This document shows positions 3,349 through 32,120 of a stretch of DNA of 44,098 nt, in pieces. The stretch comes from a virus (taxonomy: Duplodnaviria > Heunggongvirae > Uroviricota > Caudoviricetes). The translations under genes and the position numbers were made by a program. The stretch's first letter is position 1. Every line of letters starts with the position of its first letter. Location: IMG/VR virus record IMGVR_UViG_2585427657_000002. The stretch is one strand, 5' to 3'. The notes beneath the pieces were generated by a model that had not been told where the DNA came from, ran no database searches, and saw only the letters and a list, made by a program, of their open reading frames with translations.

Positions 3349-3350
3349 TA

Positions 3351-10968: not shown

Positions 10969-12051
10969 TTAGAACTGATAAACCAGACCTACAGCGACGA
11001 TGTCGTCGGTATCAATACCAGCTGTTTTGGTAAACTTACTATCGTCAATTAAGTTGATTTTGTAATCAACAAAAGTGGACATGTTTTTATTAAAGTAGTA
11101 AGTAGCACCGACATCGACATACTTGACTAAGTCTCGGTCACCATGAACACCAAGGTCTTTACCTTTTGACTGAAGGTAAGCAACAGATGGACGCAGACCG
11201 AAGTCAAACTGATATTGTGCTACTGCTTCAAAGTTTTGTGCTTTGTTTGCAATATGGTTATTACCAAAAACGGTCATATTCTGAGTTTCAGAATATGTGG
11301 TAGCCAGATAGATATTGTTCGCATCATATTTCAGGCCTGCAGCCCATACTTCCGCATTTTTGCCGGAGGCATTGAATTTGCTCTTACCATAGGCGACCTG
11401 ACCGTCAGTGCGATCTGATTTAGCATAGGTTGCACCCACGCCGAATCCTTCATACTCATAAGTAGTGGAGAAACCGAAACCATCACCATTGGCTTCAGTT
11501 ACGTCAGTGCGGTCATTTTTACCCTGATACTGAGCAGCAAAGTTCAGGCCATCGACCAGACCAAAGAAGTCGTTGTTACGATAAGTTGCAACACCAGTAG
11601 TGCGACCAGTCATGAACACATCTGTTTGGGTCCAGGTATCACCACCGAATTCTGGCAGAACGTCAGTCCACGCACCGATGTCGTATGCTACACCGTAGTT
11701 ACGGCCGTAATCGATTGAGCCGTAATCACCAAATTTCAGGCCTGCAAATGCAAGACGGGTTTTGTCTTTGGAAGAACCTTGAGATTCAGCACGGTTGCCT
11801 TTGAATTCATATTCCCACTGACCGAAACCAGTCAGTTGATCGTTGATTTGGGTTTCACCTTTGAAGCCAAGACGGGCATAAGTAGTATCACCATCATCTG
11901 CATCATTAGAGGAGAAGTAGTGCTTGGCATTAACTTTCCCGTATAGATCCAGCTTGTTACTGTCTTTATTATAAATTTCAGCTGCCTGAGCAGACATCGC
12001 CATCAGTACTGATGCAGCTACAGCAGAAATTGCCACTGTTAATTTTTTCAT
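10969..12051 (-). CDS. nmpC: Outer-membrane general porin, phage-encoded OmpC-family (NmpC/Lc type)
   Basis: Signal peptide [23 protein letters not shown] then AEIYNKD...; C-terminal ...VAVGLVYQF; opposite orientation to phage late genes. Start taken as ATG 12051, not the longer ORF-track start. Confidence 0.9.
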
Positions 12052-12477
12052 TGTACGCCCTTTTTTTGAACTTTTATTAAAAAATGATGTCACTGCGCGA
12101 TAAATATTCATCTAATCAATGTGATTATTTCAAGATGTAAGTTTTAGTTTCTCATTTAATTTGTGAAGTAGATCTCTATTTTTATCTGAACCTTTTCTAT
12201 CTAATCCTATTCATGGCTCTTGTCTGAACAAAAATAAATCTATTAGCTAATTTATATTAATGGCACTTATTTATAAGTGCTCTATAATTCTTTAGCTTAA
12301 TTTAAACAAACTAAAAATAACATCGGAAATTATTAACTGGTTATTTGTTGAAGTTTTCTTATGCATTTGTGGTGGTGTTTTGAACACTCGGTGGCATTCT
12401 CACAAATATCATTTAGTAGTTTACGTACGTAAAAAATTGGTTATGCTGTTAAGAGTGGTTACTTCGTCACACAGCTT

Positions 12478-12510
12478 AAACCCGCCGTCGAGCGGGTTTT
12501 TCCATTTTTT
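12478..12510 (+). terminator. Intrinsic terminator upstream of the lysis cassette (candidate tR')
   Basis: Hairpin CCCGC-CGTCGA-GCGGG followed by TTTTTCCATTTTTT, about 130 bp before the holin start. Confidence 0.55.
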
Positions 12511-12639
12511 GAGTCTCGATATTAGCTGATAACCCAATACCTGAGTTATTCACTGACTCCGAATCTGTTACGTTTCTGCCTTTATTGCGATACGTAGTAT
12601 CCCCTTAATTTACACCCGCTTTGTCTGCGAGGTGGGGTT

Positions 12640-12855
12640 ATGAAATCCATGGATAAGTTAACAACGGGTGTCGCCTATGGTACCTCAGCAGGTAGTGCCG
12701 GGTACTGGTTTTTACAGTTGCTCGATAAAGTCACGCCCTCACAGTGGGCGGCAATAGGTGTGCTGGGTAGCCTGGTATTTGGCCTGCTGACGTACCTGAC
12801 AAACCTTTATTTCAAGATTAAAGAAGATAAGCGCAAGGCTGCGAGAGGTGAATAA
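12640..12855 (+). CDS. S: Holin, phage-21 pinholin type
   Basis: 71 aa, [71 protein letters not shown]; two TM segments, dual-start motif MKSM. Confidence 0.9.
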
Positions 12856-13352
12856 TGCCTCCATCATTACGAAAAGCCGTTGCTGCTGCTATTGGTGGCG
12901 GAGCAATTGCTATAGCATCAGTGTTAATCACTGGCCCAAGTGGTAACGATGGTCTGGAAGGTGTCAGCTACATACCATACAAAGATATTGTTGGTGTATG
13001 GACTGTATGTCACGGGCATACAGGAAAAGACATCATGCTCGGTAAAACGTATACCAAAGCAGAATGCAAAGCCCTCCTGAATAAAGACCTTGCCACGGTC
13101 GCCAGACAAATTAACCCGTACATCAAAGTCGATATACCGGAAACAATGCGCGGCGCTCTTTACTCATTCGTTTACAACGTGGGTGCTGGCAATTTCAGAA
13201 CATCGACGCTTCTTCGCAAAATAAACCAGGGCGATATCAAAGGCGCATGTGATCAGCTACGTCGCTGGACATATGCTGGCGGTAAGCAATGGAAAGGTCT
13301 CATGACTCGTCGTGAGATTGAGCGTGAAATCTGTTTGTGGGGTCAGCAATGA
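12855..13352 (+). CDS. R: SAR endolysin (lysozyme with signal-anchor-release N-terminus)
   Basis: 165 aa; N-terminal weakly hydrophobic SAR segment [20 protein letters not shown] followed by lysozyme domain; overlaps holin stop. Confidence 0.9.
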
Positions 13353-13810
13353 ACAGAGTAACCGCGATTATCTCCGCTCTGGTTATCTGCATCATCGTCT
13401 GCCTGTCATGGGCTGTTAATCATTACCGTGATAACGCCATTACCTACAAAGCCCAGCGCGACAAAAATGCCAGAGAACTGACGCTGGCGAACGCGGCAAT
13501 TACTGACATACAGATGCGTCAGCGTGATGTTGCTGCGCTCGATGCAAAATACACGAAGGAGTTAGCTGATGCGAAAGCTGAAAATGATGCTCTGCGTGAT
13601 GATGTTGCCGCTGGTCGTCGTCGGTTGCACATCAAAGCAGTCTGTCAGTCAGTGCGTGAAGCCACCACCGCCTCCGGCGTGGATAATGCAGCCTCCCCCC
13701 GACTGGCAGACACCGCTGAACGGGATTATTTCACCCTCAGAGAGAGGCTGATCACTATGCAAAAACAACTGGAAGGAACCCAGAAGTATATTAATGAGCA
13801 GTGCAGATAG
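13349..13810 (+). CDS. Rz: Rz i-spanin
   Basis: 153 aa, [38 protein letters not shown]...; N-terminal TM then coiled-coil; ATGA overlap with R. Confidence 0.9.
13569..13751 (+). CDS. Rz1: Rz1 o-spanin lipoprotein, embedded in the +1 frame of Rz
   Basis: [20 protein letters not shown]... lipobox, proline-rich mature part; entirely nested within Rz. Confidence 0.85.
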
Positions 13811-13841
13811 AGCTGCCCATATCGATGGGCAACTCATGCAA

Positions 13842-14135
13842 TTATTGTGAGCAATACACACGCGCTTCCAGCGGAGTATAAATGCCTAAAGTAATAAAAC
13901 CGAGCAATCCATTTACGAATGTTTGCTGGGTTTCTGTTTTAACAACATTTTCTGCACCACCACAAATTTTTGCTGCATCGACAGTTTTCTTCTGCCCAAT
14001 TCCCGAAACGAAGAAATGATGGGTGATGGTTTCCTTTGGTGTTACTGCTGTAGGTTTGTTTCCAACAGTAAACGTCTGTTGAGCACATCCTGTAATAAGC
14101 ATTGCCAGAGCGGCAGAAAACAACATTTTTTTCAT
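13842..14135 (-). CDS. bor: Bor lipoprotein (serum-resistance moron)
   Basis: 97 aa from MKKMLFSAALAMLITGCAQQTFTV... (lipobox LITGC). Confidence 0.9.
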   Translation of the reverse strand: MKKMLFSAALAMLITGCAQQTFTVGNKPTAVTPKETITHHFFVSGIGQKKTVDAAKICGGAENVVKTETQQTFVNGLLGFITLGIYTPLEARVYCSQ

Positions 14136-14615
14136 CTTATTATCCTGCATTGTTAAAAACGGCAGAATCCTATGTGACAACAATTAAACGATAGTTAAAT
14201 GGATTGATGAAAATTAAAACTACACAGGTGGGCTCAGACTATTGGAGGAAGTTGGGGACACTCAGAATCCTGTGGAATGAAATAAACCGGTCTATCCGTC
14301 CATTACCCTTTTAGCTGCGCTGTATCGTCGCCGTATTCCCGCATTAACCATGACCGTAGCCCGACGGGGAATTCCTTCTGCGTGAGTGTGCGGGAATAAT
14401 TAAAAACGATGCACACCGGGTTTTTACCGCGTTAATGATTCGCGGGTTTATCCCGGTGCGATGGTGGAAGAAACAGGAAGCTGTATTACAGAAAGTGCTA
14501 CTACTGTATCCCGATGCGATGTATGTAATGTGAGTCAGATAATGGCACAGGATGTGGTGATGTGGCAGTCTGGAACACAGGATATATTGTCAGAATAAGA
14601 CCCGTAGGAATAAAA

Positions 14616-14942
14616 ATGAAAAGACGCCTTTTACTACTTTTTCTGTTATCTGTCCTGGCAGTGGGATGCTCGCAGCAAAAAGCTGATGAGCCCCGGCAAT
14701 TAGTGACGGTGTATCCACGATATCCGGAATATGCTGCAGCAAATTATATCAAGGGGCTGGTTGAGGTTAAGTTCGATATTGGTGCTGATGGGACTGTGAC
14801 ACGGATCGTTTTTCTCCGCTCAGAGCCTCATAATTTGTTTCGTGATGAAGTGGTGAAGGCCATGGCGAAATGGCGATTTGAAAAGAATCGCCCCTGTCAG
14901 GGAGTGAAGAGACAATTTATCTTTACGCCGTCACGTCCTTGA
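14616..14942 (+). CDS. Lipoprotein with TonB C-terminal-like domain (moron)
   Basis: MKRRLLLLFLLSVLAVGCSQQ signal/lipobox, then VYPRYPEYAAANYIKGLVEVKFDIGADGTVTRIVFLRSEPHNLFRDEVVKAMAKWRFE, which matches the TonB_C pattern (YP..A...G.V.V.F.I..DG.V..I.......F...V..A...WR). Confidence 0.7.
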   Translation: MKRRLLLLFLLSVLAVGCSQQKADEPRQLVTVYPRYPEYAAANYIKGLVEVKFDIGADGTVTRIVFLRSEPHNLFRDEVVKAMAKWRFEKNRPCQGVKRQFIFTPSRP

Positions 14943-15064
14943 TGCTTCCAGGTAGAGAGGGGCTGGAAGCAGGAGAAAAATGAAAGAGCCAGCGGTTATA
15001 TTTTTGTCATGGCTGACGAGGAATGATGGAAGAAGGCGTTGTATGCCACACAACGCCTCACTGT

Positions 15065-15418
15065 TCATTTCTTCTTTTTCTCTGGTGGAACCCGATGAAT
15101 AAGAGTTGCACTGGTTTCCGATGAGATGGCGATATACTCGGGCAAAGTATGCTGGCAGTTTTCCAACTGGTCAAAAATACCTGCTCTCGTCTGTTGCAAT
15201 GCCTGCAGCATGCGGCGGCAATGCGCCTTGCTTTTACTAACCATCTTTCCTTCCTCTATCAGTCGCTGCGTGAACTCATCATGGAATACCAGGTAAATGC
15301 GGATGTTATCGGTTTTGGCTACGCAGCATAGTACAAAACGGACAGGTGCATCCCGGGACGGGGGAGGCGTCACATGTCCCTGTGATGGTTGTTCCGGGTA
15401 ATGTACTGTGTGGGGCAT
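15065..15418 (-). CDS. Hypothetical ORF (117 aa), coding status uncertain
   Basis: Open frame only; overlaps the small secretory ORF 15306..15557 and a + strand 60-aa ORF; identical copy at 19418..19771. Confidence 0.25.
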   Translation of the reverse strand: MPHTVHYPEQPSQGHVTPPPSRDAPVRFVLCCVAKTDNIRIYLVFHDEFTQRLIEEGKMVSKSKAHCRRMLQALQQTRAGIFDQLENCQHTLPEYIAISSETSATLIHRVPPEKKKK

Positions 15419-15557
15419 AAAAATGTCCGATAATTTTACTTTCTACCGCAGTTAGTTGATTCGTTGGTCCTGGTAGCACATTGGGCGAGGATTTAAATGC
15501 CAGGCAACTGAAGGATGATGTCGCAAGGGAGATAGCGAGAATATTTCTGATTTTCAT
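15306..15557 (-). CDS. Small predicted secreted Cys-rich protein (83 aa)
   Basis: MKIRNILAISLATSSFSCLA-FKSS signal peptide; mature part has four Cys (C..C.C..C near the C-terminus); identical copy at 19659..19910. Confidence 0.3.
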   Translation of the reverse strand: MKIRNILAISLATSSFSCLAFKSSPNVLPGPTNQLTAVESKIIGHFYAPHSTLPGTTITGTCDASPVPGCTCPFCTMLRSQNR

Positions 15558-15705
15558 TTGATGATGCCTCTGTGTGAAATGACGGTAAACGACGCACTTG
15601 TGCCGGCACATAATAGCAAGCACCATAATAGATCAGATTCGATTCTTGCTGTAAGTGATAATTATTCTCGTTTTCGGGTCCTTTCCGTCGATCCAACAGG
15701 TTACG

Positions 15706-15717
15706 GGGCGGCGACCT
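15706..15717 (+). other. cos: cosN cohesive-end site GGGCGGCGACCT (copy 1)
   Basis: ...ATCCAACAGGTTACG|GGGCGGCGACCT|CGCGG... matches the lambda right-end/left-end junction as recalled; cosB-like inverted GTCCGACATGAAAG / CATGTCGGGC elements lie between it and Nu1. Confidence 0.85.
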
Positions 15718-15893
15718 CGCGGTTTTTCACTATTTATGAAAATTTTTCAGGGAAAATCGTGTCGGTACTTCTCGAATATAACTTTTTGTTTTTTTTAATA
15801 TTGCATCCGTAAAGGTCCGACATGAAAGTGTCCGAAAATGCCTTTTTCTGGCGTTTTCATGTCGGGCCTTGTATTTGATAATGGGTTGTTTTC

Positions 15894-16158
15894 ATGAAGG
15901 TTAATAAAAAGAGGCTTGCCGAAATTTTCAACGTGGACCCGCGGACGATTGAACGCTGGCAGTCTCAGGGACTCCCTTGCGCCTCCAAAGGTAGTAAGGG
16001 CATTGAATCTGTATTTGATACTGCCATGGCAATTCAGTGGTATGCGCAGAGGGAAACTGATATCGAAAACGAAAAGCTCCGCAAAGAACTGGACGATTTG
16101 CGTGCGGCAGCGGAGTCAGATTTACAACCCGGCACCATTGACTATGAACGCTACCGGC
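15894..16158 (+). pseudogene. nu1: Terminase small subunit Nu1, 5' copy truncated after codon ~88 by a rearrangement junction
   Basis: [33 protein letters not shown]...TIDYERYR then sequence switches to the reverse complement of the porin upstream region. Confidence 0.7.
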
Positions 16159-16323
16159 ACATCTTGAAATAATCACATTGATTAGATGAATATTTATCGC
16201 GCAGTGACATCATTTTTTAATAAAAGTTCAAAAAAAGGGCGTACAATGAAAAAATTAACAGTGGCAATTTCTGCTGTAGCTGCATCAGTACTGATGGCGA
16301 TGTCTGCTCAGGCAGCTGAAATT
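16159..16323. repeat. Fold-back arm: reverse complement of 11974..12138 forming a perfect palindrome with 16327..16491
   Basis: 16159..16323 reads as the exact reverse complement of the porin 5' end and upstream region; symmetry centre at about 16325 (GCTGAAATT-ATA-AATTTCAGC). Confidence 0.85.
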
Positions 16324-16830
16324 ATAAATTTCAGCTGCCTGAGCAGACATCGCCATCAGTACTGATGCAGCTACAGCAGAAATTGCCACTGTTAATTTTT
16401 TCATTGTACGCCCTTTTTTTGAACTTTTATTAAAAAATGATGTCACTGCGCGATAAATATTCATCTAATCAATGTGATTATTTCAAGATGTAAGTTTTAG
16501 TTTCTCATTTAATTTGTGAAGTAGATCTCTATTTTTATCTGAACCTTTTCTATCTAATCCTATTCATGGCTCTTGTCTGAACAAAAATAAATCTATTAGC
16601 TAATTTATATTAATGGCACTTATTTATAAGTGCTCTATAATTCTTTAGCTTAATTTAAACAAACTAAAAATAACATCGGAAATTATTAACTGGTTATTTG
16701 TTGAAGTTTTCTTATGCATTTGTGGTGGTGTTTTGAACACTCGGTGGCATTCTCACAAATATCATTTAGTAGTTTACGTACGTAAAAAATTGGTTATGCT
16801 GTTAAGAGTGGTTACTTCGTCACACAGCTT

Positions 16831-16863
16831 AAACCCGCCGTCGAGCGGGTTTTTCCATTTTTT
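16831..16863 (+). terminator. Duplicate of terminator 12478..12510
   Basis: Identical sequence at offset +4353. Confidence 0.5.
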
Positions 16864-16992
16864 GAGTCTCGATATTAGCTGATAACCCAATACCTGAGTT
16901 ATTCACTGACTCCGAATCTGTTACGTTTCTGCCTTTATTGCGATACGTAGTATCCCCTTAATTTACACCCGCTTTGTCTGCGAGGTGGGGTT

Positions 16993-17208
16993 ATGAAATC
17001 CATGGATAAGTTAACAACGGGTGTCGCCTATGGTACCTCAGCAGGTAGTGCCGGGTACTGGTTTTTACAGTTGCTCGATAAAGTCACGCCCTCACAGTGG
17101 GCGGCAATAGGTGTGCTGGGTAGCCTGGTATTTGGCCTGCTGACGTACCTGACAAACCTTTATTTCAAGATTAAAGAAGATAAGCGCAAGGCTGCGAGAG
17201 GTGAATAA
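16993..17208 (+). CDS. S: Holin (duplicate copy)
   Basis: Identical to 12640..12855. Confidence 0.85.
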
Positions 17209-17705
17209 TGCCTCCATCATTACGAAAAGCCGTTGCTGCTGCTATTGGTGGCGGAGCAATTGCTATAGCATCAGTGTTAATCACTGGCCCAAGTGGTAAC
17301 GATGGTCTGGAAGGTGTCAGCTACATACCATACAAAGATATTGTTGGTGTATGGACTGTATGTCACGGGCATACAGGAAAAGACATCATGCTCGGTAAAA
17401 CGTATACCAAAGCAGAATGCAAAGCCCTCCTGAATAAAGACCTTGCCACGGTCGCCAGACAAATTAACCCGTACATCAAAGTCGATATACCGGAAACAAT
17501 GCGCGGCGCTCTTTACTCATTCGTTTACAACGTGGGTGCTGGCAATTTCAGAACATCGACGCTTCTTCGCAAAATAAACCAGGGCGATATCAAAGGCGCA
17601 TGTGATCAGCTACGTCGCTGGACATATGCTGGCGGTAAGCAATGGAAAGGTCTCATGACTCGTCGTGAGATTGAGCGTGAAATCTGTTTGTGGGGTCAGC
17701 AATGA
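17208..17705 (+). CDS. R: SAR endolysin (duplicate copy)
   Basis: Identical to 12855..13352. Confidence 0.85.
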
Positions 17706-18163
17706 ACAGAGTAACCGCGATTATCTCCGCTCTGGTTATCTGCATCATCGTCTGCCTGTCATGGGCTGTTAATCATTACCGTGATAACGCCATTACCTAC
17801 AAAGCCCAGCGCGACAAAAATGCCAGAGAACTGACGCTGGCGAACGCGGCAATTACTGACATACAGATGCGTCAGCGTGATGTTGCTGCGCTCGATGCAA
17901 AATACACGAAGGAGTTAGCTGATGCGAAAGCTGAAAATGATGCTCTGCGTGATGATGTTGCCGCTGGTCGTCGTCGGTTGCACATCAAAGCAGTCTGTCA
18001 GTCAGTGCGTGAAGCCACCACCGCCTCCGGCGTGGATAATGCAGCCTCCCCCCGACTGGCAGACACCGCTGAACGGGATTATTTCACCCTCAGAGAGAGG
18101 CTGATCACTATGCAAAAACAACTGGAAGGAACCCAGAAGTATATTAATGAGCAGTGCAGATAG
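17702..18163 (+). CDS. Rz: Rz i-spanin (duplicate copy)
   Basis: Identical to 13349..13810. Confidence 0.85.
17922..18104 (+). CDS. Rz1: Rz1 o-spanin (duplicate copy)
   Basis: Identical to 13569..13751. Confidence 0.8.
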
Positions 18164-18194
18164 AGCTGCCCATATCGATGGGCAACTCATGCAA

Positions 18195-18488
18195 TTATTG
18201 TGAGCAATACACACGCGCTTCCAGCGGAGTATAAATGCCTAAAGTAATAAAACCGAGCAATCCATTTACGAATGTTTGCTGGGTTTCTGTTTTAACAACA
18301 TTTTCTGCACCACCACAAATTTTTGCTGCATCGACAGTTTTCTTCTGCCCAATTCCCGAAACGAAGAAATGATGGGTGATGGTTTCCTTTGGTGTTACTG
18401 CTGTAGGTTTGTTTCCAACAGTAAACGTCTGTTGAGCACATCCTGTAATAAGCATTGCCAGAGCGGCAGAAAACAACATTTTTTTCAT
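18195..18488 (-). CDS. bor: Bor lipoprotein (duplicate copy)
   Basis: Identical to 13842..14135. Confidence 0.85.
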   Translation of the reverse strand: MKKMLFSAALAMLITGCAQQTFTVGNKPTAVTPKETITHHFFVSGIGQKKTVDAAKICGGAENVVKTETQQTFVNGLLGFITLGIYTPLEARVYCSQ

Positions 18489-18968
18489 CTTATTATCCTG
18501 CATTGTTAAAAACGGCAGAATCCTATGTGACAACAATTAAACGATAGTTAAATGGATTGATGAAAATTAAAACTACACAGGTGGGCTCAGACTATTGGAG
18601 GAAGTTGGGGACACTCAGAATCCTGTGGAATGAAATAAACCGGTCTATCCGTCCATTACCCTTTTAGCTGCGCTGTATCGTCGCCGTATTCCCGCATTAA
18701 CCATGACCGTAGCCCGACGGGGAATTCCTTCTGCGTGAGTGTGCGGGAATAATTAAAAACGATGCACACCGGGTTTTTACCGCGTTAATGATTCGCGGGT
18801 TTATCCCGGTGCGATGGTGGAAGAAACAGGAAGCTGTATTACAGAAAGTGCTACTACTGTATCCCGATGCGATGTATGTAATGTGAGTCAGATAATGGCA
18901 CAGGATGTGGTGATGTGGCAGTCTGGAACACAGGATATATTGTCAGAATAAGACCCGTAGGAATAAAA

Positions 18969-19295
18969 ATGAAAAGACGCCTTTTACTACTTTTTCTGTT
19001 ATCTGTCCTGGCAGTGGGATGCTCGCAGCAAAAAGCTGATGAGCCCCGGCAATTAGTGACGGTGTATCCACGATATCCGGAATATGCTGCAGCAAATTAT
19101 ATCAAGGGGCTGGTTGAGGTTAAGTTCGATATTGGTGCTGATGGGACTGTGACACGGATCGTTTTTCTCCGCTCAGAGCCTCATAATTTGTTTCGTGATG
19201 AAGTGGTGAAGGCCATGGCGAAATGGCGATTTGAAAAGAATCGCCCCTGTCAGGGAGTGAAGAGACAATTTATCTTTACGCCGTCACGTCCTTGA
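18969..19295 (+). CDS. TonB-C-like lipoprotein (duplicate copy)
   Basis: Identical to 14616..14942. Confidence 0.65.
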   Translation: MKRRLLLLFLLSVLAVGCSQQKADEPRQLVTVYPRYPEYAAANYIKGLVEVKFDIGADGTVTRIVFLRSEPHNLFRDEVVKAMAKWRFEKNRPCQGVKRQFIFTPSRP

Positions 19296-20058
19296 TGCTT
19301 CCAGGTAGAGAGGGGCTGGAAGCAGGAGAAAAATGAAAGAGCCAGCGGTTATATTTTTGTCATGGCTGACGAGGAATGATGGAAGAAGGCGTTGTATGCC
19401 ACACAACGCCTCACTGTTCATTTCTTCTTTTTCTCTGGTGGAACCCGATGAATAAGAGTTGCACTGGTTTCCGATGAGATGGCGATATACTCGGGCAAAG
19501 TATGCTGGCAGTTTTCCAACTGGTCAAAAATACCTGCTCTCGTCTGTTGCAATGCCTGCAGCATGCGGCGGCAATGCGCCTTGCTTTTACTAACCATCTT
19601 TCCTTCCTCTATCAGTCGCTGCGTGAACTCATCATGGAATACCAGGTAAATGCGGATGTTATCGGTTTTGGCTACGCAGCATAGTACAAAACGGACAGGT
19701 GCATCCCGGGACGGGGGAGGCGTCACATGTCCCTGTGATGGTTGTTCCGGGTAATGTACTGTGTGGGGCATAAAAATGTCCGATAATTTTACTTTCTACC
19801 GCAGTTAGTTGATTCGTTGGTCCTGGTAGCACATTGGGCGAGGATTTAAATGCCAGGCAACTGAAGGATGATGTCGCAAGGGAGATAGCGAGAATATTTC
19901 TGATTTTCATTTGATGATGCCTCTGTGTGAAATGACGGTAAACGACGCACTTGTGCCGGCACATAATAGCAAGCACCATAATAGATCAGATTCGATTCTT
20001 GCTGTAAGTGATAATTATTCTCGTTTTCGGGTCCTTTCCGTCGATCCAACAGGTTACG

Positions 20059-20070
20059 GGGCGGCGACCT
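20059..20070 (+). other. cos: cosN (copy 2)
   Basis: Identical to 15706..15717 with the same flanks. Confidence 0.8.
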
Positions 20071-20246
20071 CGCGGTTTTTCACTATTTATGAAAATTTTT
20101 CAGGGAAAATCGTGTCGGTACTTCTCGAATATAACTTTTTGTTTTTTTTAATATTGCATCCGTAAAGGTCCGACATGAAAGTGTCCGAAAATGCCTTTTT
20201 CTGGCGTTTTCATGTCGGGCCTTGTATTTGATAATGGGTTGTTTTC

Positions 20247-20795
20247 ATGAAGGTTAATAAAAAGAGGCTTGCCGAAATTTTCAACGTGGACCCGCGGACG
20301 ATTGAACGCTGGCAGTCTCAGGGACTCCCTTGCGCCTCCAAAGGTAGTAAGGGCATTGAATCTGTATTTGATACTGCCATGGCAATTCAGTGGTATGCGC
20401 AGAGGGAAACTGATATCGAAAACGAAAAGCTCCGCAAAGAACTGGACGATTTGCGTGCGGCAGCGGAGTCAGATTTACAACCCGGCACCATTGACTATGA
20501 ACGCTACCGGCTCACAAAAGCGCAGGCAGATGCGCAGGAACTGAAAAATGCCCGTGAAGACGGAGTAGTGCTGGAAACTGAACTGTTTACCTTCATTCTG
20601 CAACGTGTGGCACAGGAGATTTCGGGGATACTTGTGCGTGTGCCGTTGACATTACAGCGTAAATATCCGGACATTTCACCATCACACCTTGATGTGGTGA
20701 AAACTGAAATCGCGAAAGCCTCCAATGTTGCAGCTAAGGCCGGTGAAAACGTGGGCGGGTGGATCGATGATTTCAGACGCGCAGAAGGCAGCTAA
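20247..20795 (+). CDS. nu1: Terminase small subunit Nu1 (full length, in duplicated copy B)
   Basis: 182 aa; ...[54 protein letters not shown]...; winged-helix N-terminus. Confidence 0.85.
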
Positions 20796-21358
20796 TGCAG
20801 CCGGTGCGATAGCTACAGGGCTTTTATCTCTCATTATTCCTGTTCCACTGACGACAGTTCAGTGGGCCAATAAACATTATTACCTTCCTAAAGAGTCGTC
20901 TTATACCCCGGGGCGATGGGAAACACTGCCGTTTCAGGTTGGCATCATGAACTGTATGGGCAACGATCTGATTCGCACGGTTAACCTGATTAAATCTGCC
21001 CGTGTTGGTTATACAAAGATGTTGCTGGGAGTGGAGGCTTATTTTATTGAGCATAAATCACGCAACAGCCTTCTTTTTCAGCCCACGGACTCAGCTGCTG
21101 AAGATTTTATGAAATCTCATGTTGAGCCAACGATAAGGGATGTTCCTGCATTGCTGGAGCTGGCTCCATGGTTCGGAAGAAAACACCGCGATAATACGCT
21201 CACCCTGAAGCGTTTTTCCTCCGGTGTGGGGTTCTGGTGTCTGGGTGGTGCGGCAGCAAAAAACTACCGTGAAAAATCCGTGGATGTGGTCTGTTATGAC
21301 GAGCTTTCCTCGTTCGAACCGGATGTTGAAAAAGAGGGTTCGCCAACCCTGCTGGGGG
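20725..21358 (+). pseudogene. A: Terminase large subunit A, 5' fragment ending at a rearrangement junction
   Basis: Identical to the first ~210 codons of 22889..24859, then joins sequence equivalent to 15426 onward (...PTLLG then GTCCGATAATTTTAC...). Confidence 0.7.
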
Positions 21359-21638
21359 TCCGATAATTTTACTTTCTACCGCAGTTAGTTGATTCGTTGG
21401 TCCTGGTAGCACATTGGGCGAGGATTTAAATGCCAGGCAACTGAAGGATGATGTCGCAAGGGAGATAGCGAGAATATTTCTGATTTTCATTTGATGATGC
21501 CTCTGTGTGAAATGACGGTAAACGACGCACTTGTGCCGGCACATAATAGCAAGCACCATAATAGATCAGATTCGATTCTTGCTGTAAGTGATAATTATTC
21601 TCGTTTTCGGGTCCTTTCCGTCGATCCAACAGGTTACG

Positions 21639-21650
21639 GGGCGGCGACCT
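21639..21650 (+). other. cos: cosN (copy 3)
   Basis: Identical 12-mer and flanks. Confidence 0.8.
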
Positions 21651-21826
21651 CGCGGTTTTTCACTATTTATGAAAATTTTTCAGGGAAAATCGTGTCGGTA
21701 CTTCTCGAATATAACTTTTTGTTTTTTTTAATATTGCATCCGTAAAGGTCCGACATGAAAGTGTCCGAAAATGCCTTTTTCTGGCGTTTTCATGTCGGGC
21801 CTTGTATTTGATAATGGGTTGTTTTC

Positions 21827-22092
21827 ATGAAGGTTAATAAAAAGAGGCTTGCCGAAATTTTCAACGTGGACCCGCGGACGATTGAACGCTGGCAGTCTCA
21901 GGGACTCCCTTGCGCCTCCAAAGGTAGTAAGGGCATTGAATCTGTATTTGATACTGCCATGGCAATTCAGTGGTATGCGCAGAGGGAAACTGATATCGAA
22001 AACGAAAAGCTCCGCAAAGAACTGGACGATTTGCGTGCGGCAGCGGAGTCAGATTTACAACCCGGCACCATTGACTATGAACGCTACCGGCT
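21827..22092 (+). pseudogene. nu1: Nu1 5' fragment (third copy), truncated after codon ~88
   Basis: ...TIDYERYRL then joins sequence equivalent to 15576 onward. Confidence 0.7.
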
Positions 22093-22222
22093 GAAATGAC
22101 GGTAAACGACGCACTTGTGCCGGCACATAATAGCAAGCACCATAATAGATCAGATTCGATTCTTGCTGTAAGTGATAATTATTCTCGTTTTCGGGTCCTT
22201 TCCGTCGATCCAACAGGTTACG

Positions 22223-22234
22223 GGGCGGCGACCT
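22223..22234 (+). other. cos: cosN (copy 4, the one contiguous with the intact packaging/head operon)
   Basis: Identical 12-mer and flanks, about 190 bp upstream of the intact Nu1 at 22411. Confidence 0.85.
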
Positions 22235-22410
22235 CGCGGTTTTTCACTATTTATGAAAATTTTTCAGGGAAAATCGTGTCGGTACTTCTCGAATATAACT
22301 TTTTGTTTTTTTTAATATTGCATCCGTAAAGGTCCGACATGAAAGTGTCCGAAAATGCCTTTTTCTGGCGTTTTCATGTCGGGCCTTGTATTTGATAATG
22401 GGTTGTTTTC

Positions 22411-22959
22411 ATGAAGGTTAATAAAAAGAGGCTTGCCGAAATTTTCAACGTGGACCCGCGGACGATTGAACGCTGGCAGTCTCAGGGACTCCCTTGCGCC
22501 TCCAAAGGTAGTAAGGGCATTGAATCTGTATTTGATACTGCCATGGCAATTCAGTGGTATGCGCAGAGGGAAACTGATATCGAAAACGAAAAGCTCCGCA
22601 AAGAACTGGACGATTTGCGTGCGGCAGCGGAGTCAGATTTACAACCCGGCACCATTGACTATGAACGCTACCGGCTCACAAAAGCGCAGGCAGATGCGCA
22701 GGAACTGAAAAATGCCCGTGAAGACGGAGTAGTGCTGGAAACTGAACTGTTTACCTTCATTCTGCAACGTGTGGCACAGGAGATTTCGGGGATACTTGTG
22801 CGTGTGCCGTTGACATTACAGCGTAAATATCCGGACATTTCACCATCACACCTTGATGTGGTGAAAACTGAAATCGCGAAAGCCTCCAATGTTGCAGCTA
22901 AGGCCGGTGAAAACGTGGGCGGGTGGATCGATGATTTCAGACGCGCAGAAGGCAGCTAA
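22411..22959 (+). CDS. nu1: Terminase small subunit Nu1
   Basis: 182 aa, identical to 20247..20795; followed by overlapping terminase A. Confidence 0.9.
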
Positions 22960-24859
22960 TGCAGCCGGTGCGATAGCTACAGGGCTTTTATCTCTCATTA
23001 TTCCTGTTCCACTGACGACAGTTCAGTGGGCCAATAAACATTATTACCTTCCTAAAGAGTCGTCTTATACCCCGGGGCGATGGGAAACACTGCCGTTTCA
23101 GGTTGGCATCATGAACTGTATGGGCAACGATCTGATTCGCACGGTTAACCTGATTAAATCTGCCCGTGTTGGTTATACAAAGATGTTGCTGGGAGTGGAG
23201 GCTTATTTTATTGAGCATAAATCACGCAACAGCCTTCTTTTTCAGCCCACGGACTCAGCTGCTGAAGATTTTATGAAATCTCATGTTGAGCCAACGATAA
23301 GGGATGTTCCTGCATTGCTGGAGCTGGCTCCATGGTTCGGAAGAAAACACCGCGATAATACGCTCACCCTGAAGCGTTTTTCCTCCGGTGTGGGGTTCTG
23401 GTGTCTGGGTGGTGCGGCAGCAAAAAACTACCGTGAAAAATCCGTGGATGTGGTCTGTTATGACGAGCTTTCCTCGTTCGAACCGGATGTTGAAAAAGAG
23501 GGTTCGCCAACCCTGCTGGGGGATAAACGTATTGAGGGCTCTGTATGGCCAAAATCCATTCGCGGCTCGACGCCTAAAATCAAAGGCTCCTGCCAGATCG
23601 AAAAAGCCGCTAACGAGTCGGCACACTTCATGCGTTTTTATGTGCCCTGTCCGCACTGTGGGGAGGAGCAGTATCTGAAATTTGGCGATGATGCCTCGCC
23701 TTTCGGTCTTAAGTGGGAGAAGAATAAGCCAGAAAGTGTTTTCTACCTTTGTGAGCATCATGGCTGTGTGATCCATCAGTCTGAGCTTGACCAGAGTAAC
23801 GGGCGGTGGATCTGTGAAAACACGGGCATGTGGACCCGTGACGGCCTGATGTTTTTCAGCGCCCGGGGTGATGAAATTCCGCCGCCGCGCTCCATCACTT
23901 TCCATATCTGGACGGCGTACAGTCCGTTCACCACCTGGGTACAGATTGTCTATGACTGGCTGGATGCACTGAAAGATCCCAACGGCCTGAAAACCTTTGT
24001 GAACACCACGCTGGGCGAGACCTGGGAAGAGGCTGTGGGCGAAAAACTCGATCACCAGGTGCTGATGGATAAGGTTGTGCGTTACACGGCGGCGGTGCCT
24101 GCCCGGGTGGTTTATCTGACGGCGGGCATTGACTCGCAGCGAAACCGTTTTGAGATGTATGTCTGGGGATGGGCTCCGGGAGAGGAAGCCTTTCTGGTGG
24201 ATAAAATCATCATTATGGGGCGTCCCGATGAGGAAGAGACGCTGTTACGTGTGGATGCGGCGATCAACAAAAAATACCGCCATGCAGACGGAACCGAAAT
24301 GACCATTTCCCGTGTCTGCTGGGACATCGGGGGGATCGATGGCGAAATCGTTTATCAGAGGTCAAAAAAACACGGTGTTTTCCGGGTGCTGCCGGTAAAA
24401 GGCGCGTCTGTCTATGGCAAGCCGGTGATCACCATGCCGAAAACCCGCAATCAGCGGGGCGTTTATCTGTGTGAAGTGGGGACGGACACCGCAAAAGAAA
24501 TTCTCTATGCCCGTATGAAAGCCGAGCCCACGCCTGCGGATGAAGCCACGTCGTATGCCATCCGTTTTCCTGATGATCCGGAGATTTTTTCGCAGACAGA
24601 GGCGCAGCAACTGGTCGCGGAAGAGCTTGTGGAGAAGTGGGAAAAAGGAAAGATGCGTCTGCTGTGGGATAACAAAAAGCGGCGTAACGAAGCGCTGGAC
24701 TGCCTGGTGTATGCCTACGCGGCATTACGTGTGTCCGTGCAACGCTGGCAGCTTGATCTGGCTGTACTGGCAAAATCCCGGGAAGAAGAGACGACCCGGC
24801 CAACCCTTAAAGAACTGGCAGCGAAGCTGTCCGGAGGAGTGAATGGTTACAGTCGCTGA
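22889..24859 (+). CDS. A: Terminase large subunit A
   Basis: ...[32 protein letters not shown]...[14 protein letters not shown]...[19 protein letters not shown]... lambda gpA pattern; start could alternatively be the ATG at 22931 (MISDAQ...). Confidence 0.9.
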
Positions 24860-25049
24860 ACTGCAGGCGCTGCGTCAGGCGCGCCTTGATTTATTAACCG
24901 GTAAACGGGTGGTGTCTGTCCAGAAAGATGGTCGCAGAATTGAATATACGGCGGCTTCTCTGGATGAGCTTAACCGGGCGATCAATGATGCGGAGTCGGT
25001 ACTGGGGACAACCCGGTGTCGCCGTCGTCCGCTGGGAGTGAGGTTATGA
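24843..25049 (+). CDS. W: Head-tail joining protein W
   Basis: 68 aa, ...LLTGKRVVSVQKDGRRIEYTAASLDELNRAINDAE... Confidence 0.9.
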   Translation: MVTVAELQALRQARLDLLTGKRVVSVQKDGRRIEYTAASLDELNRAINDAESVLGTTRCRRRPLGVRL

Positions 25050-26638
25050 AACGAACGCCTGTCCTGATTGATGTGAACGGCGTTCCGCTTCGTGAGAGTC
25101 TCAGCTACAACGGGGGCGGTGCAGGATTTGGCGGGCAAATGGCTGAGTGGTTGCCACCGGCGCAGAGTGCCGATGCGGCCCTGCTGCCCGCGTTGCGTCT
25201 GGGGAATGCCCGGGCAGATGATCTGGTGCGCAATAACGGAATAGCGGCTAATGCGGTGGCTCTGCATAAGGATCACATTGTCGGGCATATGTTTCTGATC
25301 AGCTACCGTCCGAACTGGCGCTGGCTGGGGATGCGGGAGACCGCAGCAAAAAGCTTTGTCGATGAGGTGGAGGCGGCCTGGTCGGAATACGCCGAAGGGA
25401 TGTTTGGCGAGATCGACGTGGAAGGAAAACGCACGTTCACGGAATTTATCCGTGAAGGTGTGGGCGTTCATGCGTTTAACGGCGAAATCTTTGTGCAGCC
25501 GGTCTGGGATACGGAAACCACGCAGTTATTCCGTACGCGTTTTAAAGCCGTGAGTCCGAAACGGGTGGACACGCCTGGACACGGTATGGGGAACCGTTTT
25601 CTGCGGGCCGGTGTGGAGGTCGATCGATATGGCCGTGCCGTCGCGTACCATATCTGTGAGGATGATTTTCCGTTCTCTGGTAGTGGACGATGGGAACGGA
25701 TCCCGCGTGAACTTCCCACCGGGCGTCCGGCCATGCTGCATATTTTCGAGCCGGTGGAGGACGGGCAGACCCGTGGGGCTAATCAGTTTTACAGCGTCAT
25801 GGAACGGCTGAAGATGCTCGATTCCCTGCAGGCAACACAGCTTCAGTCGGCCATAGTGAAGGCGATGTATGCAGCGACGATTGAAAGTGAACTTGATACC
25901 GAAAAGGCCTTTGAATATATCGCCGGCGCGCCACAGGAGCAGAAGGATAATCCGCTTATTAATATTCTGGAGAAGTTCTCCAGCTGGTATGACACGAATA
26001 ACGTGACACTGGGCGGTGTCAAAATTCCGCACCTTTTCCCTGGTGATGATCTGAAACTACAGACTGCGCAGGATTCAGACAATGGATTTTCTGCGCTTGA
26101 ACAGGCGCTGCTGCGGTATATCGCCGCCGGTCTTGGCGTTTCCTACGAACAGTTGTCCCGTGATTACTCGAAGGTCAGTTACTCAAGTGCCCGCGCCTCC
26201 GCCAATGAGTCGTGGCGCTATTTTATGGGGCGGCGAAAATTTATTGCGGCCCGGCTGGCCACGCAGATGTTTTCCTGCTGGCTGGAAGAGGCACTTCTTC
26301 GGGGGATTATTCGTCCGCCACGGGCACGTTTTGATTTTTATCAGGCGCGATCAGCCTGGTCACGGGCAGAGTGGATTGGTGCCGGAAGAATGGCCATTGA
26401 CGGGCTCAAGGAAGTCCAGGAATCAGTGATGCGCATTGAGGCCGGACTGAGCACGTATGAGAAAGAGCTGGCGCTGATGGGCGAGGATTATCAGGACATT
26501 TTCCGCCAGCAGGTCAGGGAATCTGCTGAGCGGCAAAAAGCCGGACTCTCACGTCCGGTGTGGATAGAGCAGGCGTATCAGCAGCAGATAGCGGAGAGTC
26601 GTAGGCCGGAAGAGGAGACAACACCACGTGAGACGTAA
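25046..26638 (+). CDS. B: Portal protein B
   Basis: Starts MKRTPVLIDVNGVPLRESLSYNGGGAGFGGQ...; lambda gpB pattern throughout (...EPVEDGQTRGANQFYSVMERLKMLDSLQATQLQSAIVKAMYAATIESELD...). Confidence 0.9.
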   Translation: MKRTPVLIDVNGVPLRESLSYNGGGAGFGGQMAEWLPPAQSADAALLPALRLGNARADDLVRNNGIAANAVALHKDHIVGHMFLISYRPNWRWLGMRETAAKSFVDEVEAAWSEYAEGMFGEIDVEGKRTFTEFIREGVGVHAFNGEIFVQPVWDTETTQLFRTRFKAVSPKRVDTPGHGMGNRFLRAGVEVDRYGRAVAYHICEDDFPFSGSGRWERIPRELPTGRPAMLHIFEPVEDGQTRGANQFYSVMERLKMLDSLQATQLQSAIVKAMYAATIESELDTEKAFEYIAGAPQEQKDNPLINILEKFSSWYDTNNVTLGGVKIPHLFPGDDLKLQTAQDSDNGFSALEQALLRYIAAGLGVSYEQLSRDYSKVSYSSARASANESWRYFMGRRKFIAARLATQMFSCWLEEALLRGIIRPPRARFDFYQARSAWSRAEWIGAGRMAIDGLKEVQESVMRIEAGLSTYEKELALMGEDYQDIFRQQVRESAERQKAGLSRPVWIEQAYQQQIAESRRPEEETTPRET

Positions 26639-28133: not shown

Positions 28134-28169
28134 AGTCAGTGCTGACCATCAATAGGAGGTTTTTACAAT

Positions 28170-28517: not shown

Positions 28518-28574
28518 CACGTTATCAGGCCACCGCGGTGGCCTGACTGATTTCTGAATGAAAGGAACTGATTT

Positions 28575-29603: not shown

Positions 29604-29611
29604 TCCGTGAG

Positions 29612-29640
29612 CGGGGGCGAAATGCCCCCGTGTCTTTTTT
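29612..29640 (+). terminator. Intrinsic terminator-like hairpin right after the major capsid gene
   Basis: CGGGGGC-GAAAT-GCCCCCG followed by TGTCTTTTTT. Confidence 0.55.
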
Positions 29641-29654
29641 CACAGGGGGCTGAT

Positions 29655-30375: not shown

Positions 30376-30386
30376 AAGGGGGATGT

Positions 30387-31357: not shown

Positions 31358-31364
31358 GGACGAT

Positions 31365-32105: not shown

Positions 32106-32120
32106 TCCGGAGAGTCAGCG

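What the first reader, a model, noticed from the sequence alone, without database searches (positions are those of the whole stretch)
16150..16162. Two independent junctions fall within one nucleotide of each other inside Nu1
The copy-1 junction lies after ...GAACGCTACCGGC (16158) and the copy-3 junction after ...GAACGCTACCGGCT (22092), i.e. the same Nu1 codon (~88-89) but joined to different partners (an inverted porin-upstream segment versus sequence 130 bp upstream of cos). Recurrent breakage at one site points to a hotspot: a biological DNA end or nick, a site-specific event, or a systematic assembly or read-end artefact. It is not cosN, which lies ~450 bp upstream.
Basis: seen in the sequence. 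Interest (0 to 1): 0.4.

Follow-up and report, generated by a model that had tools for sequence, protein, structure and literature searches.

The report
Shared breakpoint in scrambled prophage assembly
Two odd joins at the same base of a phage packaging gene are real in this sequence, but they most likely come from faulty stitching of overlapping pieces of a well-known E. coli Nissle 1917 prophage, probably at a spot where a jumping gene inserts, not from a new DNA-breaking mechanism.

Summary
Two copies continue natively. Two are joined to foreign partners, and because the T at 22092 is ambiguous both joins can sit on the identical nucleotide (chance P about 0.006-0.016).

The window is the defective icd-locus lambdoid prophage of E. 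coli Nissle 1917 (phage-21-type cos/terminase), identical to the reference except for a set of anomalies. These are four collinear blocks abutted bluntly (microhomology 0/3/1/1 nt), a 2x165-bp near-perfect palindrome, six +C insertions that would truncate the repressor, and stray IS-end fragments. No junction is found in 5,426 complete E. coli genomes or the phage, IMG/VR, GTDB-representative and metagenome collections.

b is phage-21 nt 453. It is not cosN or cosB, not a hairpin and not a mosaic boundary. Three independent assemblies break within 5 nt of b, one through a real IS629/IS1203-type insertion at b+1.

Best reading: artefactual stitching, with b one underlying discontinuity (probably an IS insertion site) used twice. 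Reads could not be examined and the source record was not identified. Low interest.

The parts
11968..16158 (+). Last 4,191 nt of block 1 (native, continuous with 1-11967): porin 5' end, lysis genes, bor, cos, gene 1 codons 1-88. It is repeated exactly at 16321-20511.
   Evidence: Self-BLAST 100% over 4,191 nt; collinear with Nissle locus L002.
15706..15717 (+). cosN copy 1 (GGGCGGCGACCT = phage 21 nt 1-12). Further copies are at 20059-20070, 21639-21650 and 22223-22234.
   Evidence: Exact match to the first 30 nt of phage 21 OL657228.1 at four window positions; cos annotation.
15894..16172 (+). Gene 1 (small terminase, Nu1 homologue) copy 1, truncated by J1: residues 1-88 plus HILK*.
   Evidence: Translation; Pfam Phage_Nu1 on the intact copy.
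16158..16159 (.). J1: b joined bluntly (0 nt microhomology) to an inverted segment.
   Evidence: Absent from 5,426 complete E. coli genomes, phages, and IMG/VR, GTDB representatives and metagenomes.
16159..16323 (-). 165-nt inverted copy of 11974-12138 (porin start codon, signal peptide and upstream region). It is the left arm of the palindrome.
   Evidence: the repeat finder I1/I2, 100% complementary.
16324..16326 (.). ATA centre of a 2x165-bp near-perfect, AT-rich-centred palindrome (fold-back junction, 3-nt microhomology ATT).
   Evidence: absent from IMG/VR.
16327..21358 (+). Block 2: second full copy of porin 5' end, lysis genes, cos and an intact gene 1 (20247-20795; b at 20511), plus the first 199 codons of gene 2. 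It ends at phage-21 nt 1300.
   Evidence: 100% identical to Nissle L002 14756-19793.
21358..21358 (.). J2: jump back 1,580/1,581 nt from phage-21 nt +1300 to -280/-281; 1 shared G.
   Evidence: 0 of 5,426 complete genomes; absent from IMG/VR.
21359..22091 (+). Block 3: 733-735 nt from -280 to b, containing cos copy 3 and gene 1 copy 3 (21827-22099, residues 1-88 plus LK*).
22091..22092 (.). J3: b (or b+1; the T is ambiguous) joined to -130/-131 upstream of cosN.
   Evidence: Not present as one piece in complete genomes (listed full-coverage hits are two pieces 585 bp apart); absent from IMG/VR, metagenomes and GTDB representatives.
22092..44098 (+). Block 4: native from -130 through cos copy 4, intact gene 1 (22411-22959; b at 22675), gene 2, and head and tail genes to the end of the window.
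   Evidence: 100% identical over 22,007 nt to Nissle L002 18363-40369.

Best explanation
The window is an unreliable rendering of the defective lambdoid prophage at the icd locus of E. coli Nissle 1917. Four blocks, each a perfect and collinear copy of that one locus, are abutted without being merged. Block 1 runs up to b. Block 2 is a 165-nt fold-back followed by porin 5' end through phage-21 nt +1300. Block 3 runs from -280 to b. Block 4 runs from -130 onward. The apparent tandem duplications (periods 4,353, 1,580 and 584 nt) are the unmerged overlaps of these blocks, and the palindrome is a fold-back chimera at the head of block 2. Blocks 1 and 3 end on the same nucleotide because the underlying data were discontinuous there, so the two junctions reflect one discontinuity used twice and not two independent breakage events. 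The most concrete candidate for that discontinuity is an IS629/IS1203-type (IS3-family) insertion at nt 453/454 of gene 1, present in all or part of the sequenced culture. Contigs break at such a repeat. Shown: the anatomy, the blunt joins, the uniqueness of the junctions, and the independent use of this site by that IS. Inferred: that the source data had such an insertion (about 0.4 on its own), and that stitching produced J1 and J3.
For: 1. Parent and uniqueness. Apart from the anomalies, the window has no mismatch to Nissle CP022686.1. The closest phage record, 33 complete genomes sharing the Nissle-type left end and 10 sampled contexts of the gene 1 protein all have one copy of the porin-lysis-cos-gene 1 region.
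2. No junction exists anywhere else. Five junction-specific proteins are absent from a 15-billion-protein collection. Positive control: 75 IMG/VR contigs carry the native sequence across b.
3. Junction microhomology of 0/3/1/1 nt is what random blunt abutment gives (P=0.16). All copies are 100% identical, and block starts ascend along the locus.
4. The structure includes a 2x165-bp palindrome with a 3-nt AT-rich centre. A 460-bp perfect chromosomal palindrome kills SbcCD+ E. coli even when rec+ (PMC4245961).
5. Co-occurring error-like anomalies: six +C insertions within 110 bp (5 of 6 extend a C run) that put stop codons into the repressor gene, a T7-to-T8 change, a 5-nt duplication, and a foreign 170-nt IS end present twice.
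6. b is a discontinuity in independent assemblies. L082 has the same IS type (77/77 nt identical to the reverse complement of the stray fragment) inserted at b+1. L083 stops at b+2. L126 starts at b-4. About 0.03 right-hand ends are expected within 2 nt of b and two are observed. None of the other five breakpoints shows this.
7. If the source is the first Nissle assembly (unproven): it is 386 kb longer than later ones and had irp1 frameshifted and irp2 interrupted by an IS, neither confirmed on re-sequencing (PMC9049610, PMC9801561, PMC8636617).
Against: - The reads and the identity of the source record could not be obtained, so no junction could be tested directly.
- No IS sequence lies at J1 or J3 in the window. 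Two of the four copies cross b uninterrupted, so an IS at b would have to be subclonal or come from a merged data set.
- No complete E. coli genome has an IS at this site.
- The 100 nt left of b match only one place in the Nissle genome, so b is not a repeat boundary there. The other breakpoints are not homology boundaries either, so a simple collapsed-repeat graph does not explain all block ends.
- TGAAAT lies at or near three junction sides (P about 0.0025, a motif chosen post hoc). Random stitching does not predict that.
- The overall layout (duplication with a short inverted middle copy) also resembles real replicative template-switch products.
Confidence: 0.65

Rival explanations
1. A genuine, recent complex rearrangement in a Nissle sub-line. 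This would be replication template switching or break-induced replication of the tandem-inversion-duplication (DUP-TRP/INV-DUP) type plus nested tandem duplications. It might start from a fork-blocking lesion or an IS629-type transposase nick at b, with pseudo-ends beginning TGAA.
For: - The architecture fits: a duplicated 4.2-kb block with a 165-nt inverted middle copy and a 3-nt microhomology at the fold-back.
- All partners lie within 4.2 kb of b, so the process is local.
- TGAAAT is enriched at acceptor sides.
- b is independently an IS3-family target.
- Palindromes and DSBs are known to generate inverted duplications in E. coli (PMC3315005).
Against: - J1, J2 and J3 have 0-1 nt of microhomology, as random joins do, and E. 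coli has no end-joining pathway (own knowledge).
- A 333-bp near-perfect palindrome should be lethal or quickly lost in SbcCD+ cells (PMC4245961).
- Inverted duplications of that kind were seen only without SbcCD and RecA.
- Four perfect direct repeats are recombinationally unstable.
- The frameshifted repressor next to intact lysis genes would not give a viable lysogen (inference).
- The structure is absent from every sibling assembly.
- No IS lies at the junctions.
Confidence: 0.17
2. In-vitro chimeras that an assembler then incorporated, with no IS involved. Candidates are phi29 multiple-displacement amplification or chimeric/fold-back long reads, with the polymerase repeatedly running off a template end or nick at b.
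For: - The zig-zag pattern of forward, short inverted piece, then forward from the turning point is typical of MDA or fold-back chimeras. MDA is documented to produce pervasive palindromic (inverted chimeric) reads that compromise assembly (abstract of PMC13265396).
- Jump-backs are local.
- All copies are identical.
Against: - It needs a specific template end at b, for which there is no evidence.
- It does not explain why independent assemblies also break at b.
- MDA junctions usually carry more microhomology than seen here (own knowledge).
- Consensus assemblers normally out-vote single chimeric reads.
Confidence: 0.1
3. b is a specific biological DNA end or nick made by the packaging machinery or another site-specific nuclease, and the free end was joined to nearby DNA twice.
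For: The same nucleotide is used twice. The site lies in the first DNA packaged after cos cleavage.
Against: - b is 452 nt from cosN and 287 nt beyond the last annotated cosB element.
- There is no cos-like sequence, hairpin (z=0.22) or repeat.
- RecBCD would not leave an exact end twice (own knowledge).
- Two copies cross b intact.
Confidence: 0.03
4. Pure coincidence of two unrelated breakpoints.
For: Many breakpoints lie in a small region.
Against: P=0.006-0.016, and three further independent discontinuities lie at the same place.
Confidence: 0.01

Closest known systems
Redundant or mis-joined blocks in early 'complete' bacterial assemblies, for example the first E. coli Nissle 1917 record CP007799.1
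   Same: Same strain lineage and prophage. Same classes of anomaly: extra sequence, frameshifts and IS insertions that were not confirmed on re-sequencing (PMC8636617, PMC9049610). General warnings about early hybrid 454 genomes are in PMC9176272.
   Different: It could not be shown that the window comes from that record. No published description of this particular locus was found.
Tandem inversion duplication (Kugelberg et al. 2010, Genetics 185:65; citation seen, content from own knowledge) and DUP-TRP/INV-DUP rearrangements
   Same: A duplicated segment with an inverted middle copy, and a fold-back junction at a short AT-rich quasi-palindrome with 3-nt microhomology.
   Different: - The inverted copy is only 165 nt.
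- The other junctions have no microhomology.
- No amplified gene under selection is evident.
- The symmetric palindromic junction is retained, whereas real cases lose it.
- Two further nested direct jump-backs share a breakpoint.
Palindrome-induced inverted chromosome duplications in E. coli (Darmon et al. 2010, PMC3315005; Azeroglu et al. 2014, PMC4245961)
   Same: A long palindrome sits at the centre of an inverted duplication.
   Different: Those form only without SbcCD and RecA. A long perfect palindrome is lethal in SbcCD+ cells. Here the palindrome would have to persist in a wild-type probiotic strain.
IS629/IS1203-type (IS3-family) insertion polymorphisms in lambdoid prophages
   Same: The same IS type is inserted at b+1 in an independent prophage (L082). 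Stray ends of it occur in the window, and contig breaks at b occur in two more assemblies.
   Different: In the window no IS is present at b. No target consensus was found at four other insertion sites. The site is not occupied in any complete genome.
cos (cosN/cosB) of phage 21 and lambda
   Same: The rearranged unit contains a complete phage-21 cos site and gene 1, 100% identical to the phage 21 records over the junction-region query (99.8% over 2,778 nt).
   Different: The breakpoint is at nt 453, outside cosN (1-12) and cosB (50-166).

Membership tests
Assembly or stitching artefact (unmerged overlapping blocks plus a fold-back chimera) | Every block is individually collinear with, and identical to, the true single-copy locus | tested here: met
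   Five alignment segments at 100% (99.4% for the inverted arm, 1 gap) to Nissle L002; copies are 100% identical to each other.
Assembly or stitching artefact (unmerged overlapping blocks plus a fold-back chimera) | Joins are blunt, with no more microhomology than random abutment | tested here: met
   0/3/1/1 nt against a random mean of 0.67; P(sum>=5)=0.16.
Assembly or stitching artefact (unmerged overlapping blocks plus a fold-back chimera) | Junctions are absent from independent assemblies of the same strain or prophage | tested here: met
   native control positive.
Assembly or stitching artefact (unmerged overlapping blocks plus a fold-back chimera) | Other sequencing or assembly errors occur in the same record | tested here: met
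   Six +C (5 of 6 homopolymer extensions) giving stop codons in cI; T7 to T8; CAGGT duplication; duplicated foreign IS end.
Assembly or stitching artefact (unmerged overlapping blocks plus a fold-back chimera) | No reads span the junctions; read depth is 1x over the 'repeats' | not testable with these tools
   Source record and reads not available; provenance look-ups failed.
Collapsed-repeat or mosaic boundary at b | Homology between related prophages, or between paralogous loci of the genome, starts or ends at b | tested here: not met
   Partial hits end at +41, +67 and +154 from b, not at b. Diverged alleles differ on both sides (-43.. and +2/+5..). The 100 nt left of b match only one place in Nissle.
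IS3-family (IS629/IS1203-type) insertion site | An IS terminal inverted repeat abuts the site | tested here: inconclusive
   Met in the independent contig L082 (b+1 followed by TGAACCGCCCCGGG..., 77/77 nt = reverse complement of window fragment E). Not met in the window itself.
IS3-family (IS629/IS1203-type) insertion site | Recurrent independent use of the site | tested here: met
   L082 (IS at b+1), L083 (stretch ends at b+2) and L126 (stretch starts at b-4) come from three different genomes. That is 3 of 10 alignment ends within +/-300 nt falling in a 7-nt window. Only L082 is proven to be an IS.
IS3-family (IS629/IS1203-type) insertion site | Short target-site duplication flanking the element | not testable with these tools
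   The L082 contig ends 77 nt into the IS, so the other junction is not available.
cosN / terminase cleavage site | The break lies at the 12-nt cohesive-end sequence flanked by cosB R sites and an IHF site | tested here: not met
   b = nt 453; cosN 1-12; cosB 50-166.
Tandem inversion duplication / DUP-TRP/INV-DUP | Three copies with the middle one inverted, flanked by duplicated sequence | tested here: met
   11974-12138 direct, 16159-16323 inverted, 16327-16491 direct; 4,191-nt block duplicated.
Tandem inversion duplication / DUP-TRP/INV-DUP | Both inversion junctions arise at short inverted repeats or microhomology; symmetric palindromic junctions are lost by deletion | tested here: not met
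   The fold-back has 3 nt but J1 has 0 nt. The 333-bp palindrome is retained intact.
Repeat- or hairpin-driven template switching at b | Inverted or direct repeats, or a stable hairpin, at the donor site or linking donor and acceptors | tested here: not met
   Fold z-score 0.22. No repeat links b with the acceptors.

The most novel reading that the evidence does not exclude
Nucleotide 453/454 of the phage-21-type small-terminase gene is a genuine hotspot for an IS3-family (IS629/IS1203-type) transposase. In this Nissle sub-line, transposase action at that site, using pseudo-ends that begin TGAA(AT), produced real local rearrangements. These quadruple cos and create two stand-alone copies of the small-terminase DNA-binding domain (residues 1-88). 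Such copies could act as cos decoys or dominant-negative packaging inhibitors against incoming 21-type phages.
Probability: 0.07. Interest if true: 0.5.

Novelty: not a real feature. Interest (0 to 1): 0.12.

Why it matters
As a biological claim it matters little. The 'hotspot' is most likely a by-product of how one record was put together, and anyone using that record would be misled: they would count four cos sites, two truncated small-terminase genes, a broken repressor and a 333-bp palindrome.

Two things are useful.
- **A curation flag.** This rendering of the Nissle 1917 icd-locus prophage should not be used for prophage, cos or terminase analyses.
- **A small real observation.** The same nucleotide of gene 1 is hit by an IS629/IS1203-type element, or by contig breaks, in three unrelated assemblies. 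This suggests a preferred insertion site that inactivates packaging in phage-21-type prophages. If the rearrangement were real, it would be an unusual case of IS-associated local amplification of a packaging site.

Tried and rejected
- **Mosaic or homology boundary at b.** A first sample showed partial hits ending at +41, +67 and +154, not at b. About 20 IMG/VR contigs then seemed to switch allele right after b, but they also differ to the left at -43, -46 and -49, so b is only the edge of a ~45-nt conserved island. Rejected.
- **Repeat boundary inside the Nissle genome.** The 100 nt left of b match one place only. Rejected.
- **Hairpin at b** (z=0.22) and **short repeats linking b to its partners**. 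Nothing found.
- **Restriction-site or Cas9-type cut at the joins** (by eye). No common site.
- **cos-like sequence at b**. None.
- **Natural homology boundaries at the ends of the 165-nt inverted piece**. None.
- **IR-like target.** TGAACGCTACCGGCT resembles the IS end TGAACCGCCCCGGGT at 10 of 15 positions. Flanks of the same IS at four other loci show no consensus. Left as an unsupported lead.
- **Relationship between the stray IS fragment and the resident ISEc52**. None.
- **Provenance.** Exact junction scans in IMG/VR, GTDB representatives and metagenomes, BLAST against complete E. coli genomes and phages, exact look-ups of five junction-specific proteins, and contexts of the intact gene 1 protein. 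The source was not found.
- **Literature.** The variant table of PMC9049610, which could have proved a CP007799.1 origin, is not held. No paper describes this locus or an IS629 hot spot in a small-terminase gene. The TID papers are not held.
- **'Round' coordinates** (+1300, -280, -130; a 5,200-nt piece). Judged a forking-paths coincidence.

Full report
**1. What is in the sequence**

A self-comparison of the window and base-level inspection confirm the finding. Let b be the last base of ...GAACGCTACCGGC. It occurs four times, at 16158, 20511, 22091 and 22675.

- At 20511 and 22675 it is followed by the native TCACAAAAGCG.
- At 16158 (J1) it is followed by the reverse complement of 11974-12138.
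- At 22091 (J3) it is followed by sequence that natively lies 583/584 nt upstream.
- The T at 22092 could belong to either side of J3, so J1 and J3 may share exactly the same nucleotide.

Two more junctions belong to the same structure. One is a fold-back centre (ATA, 16324-16326) between two perfectly complementary 165-nt arms. The other is a jump back of 1,580/1,581 nt at 21358 (J2). All repeated copies are 100% identical. With eight breakpoints in a 5-kb span, an identical pair is expected with P=0.006 and a pair within 1 nt with P=0.016. The coincidence therefore needs a cause.

**2. What the locus is**

- The cos region and terminase genes match phage 21 (100% over the junction-region query; 99.8% over 2,778 nt).
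- The whole window is the defective lambdoid prophage at the icd locus of E. coli Nissle 1917. Window 1-44098 corresponds to CP022686.1 4786142-4823368. It starts and ends exactly on annotated gene boundaries, as a predicted-provirus extract would.
- In Nissle, in the closest phage record PhiR63_2, in 33 complete genomes with the Nissle-type left end and in ten sampled contexts of the very common gene 1 protein, the porin-lysis-cos-gene 1-gene 2 region is single copy.
- In phage 21 coordinates b is nt 453, the first base of codon 89 of gene 1. cosN is 1-12 and cosB (R3, I1, R2, R1) is 50-166.
- The other breakpoints are at -3738/-3732, -3568, -280/-281, -130/-131 and +1300.

**3. How the window differs from its parent**

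Against Nissle the window decomposes into four collinear blocks:

| Block | Content |
|---|---|
| 1 | ...up to b |
| 2 | 165-nt inverted piece plus porin 5' end through +1300 |
| 3 | -280 to b |
| 4 | -130 to the end of the window |

Outside this cluster there is not a single mismatch, but there are further oddities:

- Six single +C insertions lie within 110 bp of the repressor gene. Five of them extend a C run, and together they introduce stop codons.
- There is a T7-to-T8 change.
- There is a 5-nt tandem duplication (CAGGT).
- A 355-nt block replaces 13 nt inside the terminal repeat of the resident ISEc52. It consists of the last 170 nt of a different IS, of the IS629/IS1203 type, present twice.

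**4. Are the junctions found anywhere else?**

No.

- J1 and J2 are in none of 5,426 complete E. coli genomes.
- For J3, the listed full-coverage hits are two pieces 585 bp apart, which is the native order.
- Phage records hold no junction in one piece.
- Exact scans found nothing. In IMG/VR all four junctions and the IS-fragment junction were scanned; in one-genome-per-species GTDB contigs and JGI metagenomes J1 and J3 were scanned.
- As a control, the native sequence across b is present once in each of 75 IMG/VR contigs.
- Five proteins that only this arrangement could encode are absent from a 15-billion-protein collection.

**5. Nature of the joins**

Microhomology is 0 (J1), 3 (fold-back), 1 (J2) and 1 nt (J3). 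Random blunt joins in this region give a mean of 0.67 nt, and the observed sum is unremarkable (P=0.16). There is no hairpin at b (z=0.22) and no short repeat connecting b with its partners.

b is not a mosaic boundary. Partial matches in other genomes end elsewhere. A diverged allele that shares the 30 nt before b also differs to the left of it. The 100 nt before b match only one place in the Nissle genome. The ends of the inverted piece are not homology boundaries either.

**6. Could the structure exist in a living Nissle cell?**

- The 2x165-bp palindrome has a 3-nt AT-rich centre. A 460-bp perfect palindrome in the E. coli chromosome is cleaved on both sister chromosomes by SbcCD and kills even recombination-proficient cells. 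Only interrupted palindromes with spacers of 20-24 bp are tolerated (PMC4245961).
- By analogy, which is inference, a 333-bp nearly perfect palindrome should not persist in a wild-type strain.
- The repressor truncated by frameshifts next to two intact lysis cassettes would also not be expected in a viable lysogen (inference).

**7. Why the same nucleotide twice?**

I searched IMG/VR for the 30-mer that ends at b and found 97 stretches: 75 native, about 20 of a diverged allele, and two exceptions.

- **L082** is a different prophage, 86% identical here. An IS629/IS1203-type end follows b+1 directly, and its 77 visible bases equal the reverse complement of the stray IS fragment in the window.
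- **L083** is a third prophage (95% identical) whose stretch stops at b+2.
- **L126**, found in the mirror search with the 31-mer after b, is a stretch beginning at b-4.

Alignment ends near b run at roughly 1.5 per 100 nt. About 0.03 would be expected within 2 nt on the right side and two are seen. Overall, three of ten ends within +/-300 nt fall in a 7-nt window. None of the other five breakpoints shows such independent breaks.

So b is a place where independent assemblies are discontinuous, and in at least one case the reason is a real IS insertion. No complete genome has an IS there, no target consensus emerged from four other insertion sites, and I found no literature on it.

**8. Best explanation (about 0.65)**

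The record is a stitched product in which overlapping, individually correct blocks of one locus were abutted instead of merged, with a fold-back chimera at the head of one block. Two blocks end at b because the underlying data broke there.

The best candidate cause is an IS629/IS1203-type insertion, clonal or subclonal, at a site this element also uses elsewhere. That IS also left stray ends in the left part of the window. I give this sub-hypothesis about 0.4.

The fit is supported by what is published about the first Nissle assembly, CP007799.1. It is 5,441,200 bp against 5,055,316 bp for CP022686.1, and it showed irp1 frameshifted and irp2 interrupted by an IS, neither confirmed on re-sequencing (PMC9049610, PMC9801561, PMC8636617). 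I could not show that the window comes from that record.

**9. What argues against it, and the rivals**

Points against:

- No IS lies at J1 or J3.
- Two copies cross b intact.
- The other block ends have no evident cause.
- TGAAAT lies at or near three junction sides (P about 0.0025, though I chose the motif after seeing it).

Rivals:

| Rival | Probability | Comment |
|---|---|---|
| Real complex rearrangement (tandem-inversion-duplication-like, possibly transposase-initiated) | ~0.17 | The main rival. It fits the layout but not the blunt joins, the retained palindrome or the broken repressor. |
| In-vitro chimeras from amplification or long reads | ~0.10 | |
| Packaging-related or other site-specific DNA end | ~0.03 | No support. 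|
| Chance | ~0.01 | Excluded by the statistics. |

**10. If it were real**

The segment -130..+453 (cosN, cosB and gene 1 residues 1-88) would be present four times. Two copies would encode only the N-terminal part of the small terminase. That part contains the solved winged-helix DNA-binding domain (lambda gpNu1 1-68, PDB 1J9I; 1-98, 6HN7) without the assembly and large-subunit-binding regions. This is the basis of the low-probability 'decoy' reading given as the novel case.

**11. Verdict**

The feature is most likely not a real property of a genome. The small real residue is a probable IS insertion hot spot at nt 453/454 of phage-21-type gene 1. Read mapping or PCR on the source strain would settle the matter.

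Noticed in passing
window 1662-2018 (extra block 1665-2019): A 170-nt 3' end (orfB C-terminus plus terminal repeat ...GGCGGTTCA) of an IS629/IS1203-type element occurs twice, 184 nt apart, inside the terminal repeat of the resident ISEc52. Both copies follow TTC. Nissle has 13 nt here instead. The fragment is unrelated to ISEc52.
   Followed up: partly
window 5104, 5128, 5139, 5148, 5160, 5213 (and 5443): Six single +C insertions lie within 110 bp of the cI/LexA-family repressor gene (minus strand). Five of them extend a C run. They create stop codons after the helix-turn-helix part. There is also a T7-to-T8 change in the cI-cro intergenic region. No other base differences from Nissle occur in 44 kb, which looks like a low-quality read tail.
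   Followed up: partly
window 8078-8082: A 5-nt tandem duplication (CAGGT) lies between ren and ninB relative to Nissle. It is about 20 nt from where PhiR63_2 carries an IS200-family insertion.
   Followed up: no
window 16165-16170, 16317-16322, 22092-22097: TGAAAT lies at or within 6 nt of three junction sides. P is about 0.0025 for any 6-mer shared by 3 of 7 random flanks, but the motif was chosen post hoc. J3 also recreates the 8-mer GCTGAAAT found at the fold-back site. Unexplained.
   Followed up: partly
L082 8130/8131; L083 end; L126 start (IMG/VR contigs 2778261223_000013, 2721755721_000003, 2541047879_000004): Three unrelated prophage assemblies are discontinuous within 5 nt of b, one through a proven IS629/IS1203-type insertion at b+1. 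This suggests an insertion hot spot at nt 453/454 of phage-21-type gene 1. The target TGAACGCTACCGGCT matches the IS end TGAACCGCCCCGGGT at 10 of 15 positions.
   Followed up: partly
window 21358, 21359, 22093; piece 16159-21358: Several breakpoints fall on round numbers in phage-21 coordinates (+1300, -280, -130, allowing the 1-nt ambiguity), and one piece is exactly 5,200 nt. Probably coincidence among the many numbers examined.
   Followed up: no
window 1 and 44098: The window starts and ends exactly on annotated CDS boundaries of the Nissle record (integrase pseudogene start; end of the hypothetical gene before sitD). This is as expected for an automatically delimited provirus and not for a natural contig.
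   Followed up: no
L064 (about b-395) and L079 (about b+1373): Two further IMG/VR contigs continue 76-79 nt past an alignment break, the signature of a contig running k-1 bases into a repeat. These are possibly other IS insertions, one within cosB and one in gene 2.
   Followed up: no
window 22633-22679 equivalent (b-42..b+4): A ~45-nt island encoding ...[11 protein letters not shown]... is identical between the phage-21-type gene 1 and a homologue that is otherwise about 86% identical. b lies at its right edge.
   Followed up: partly
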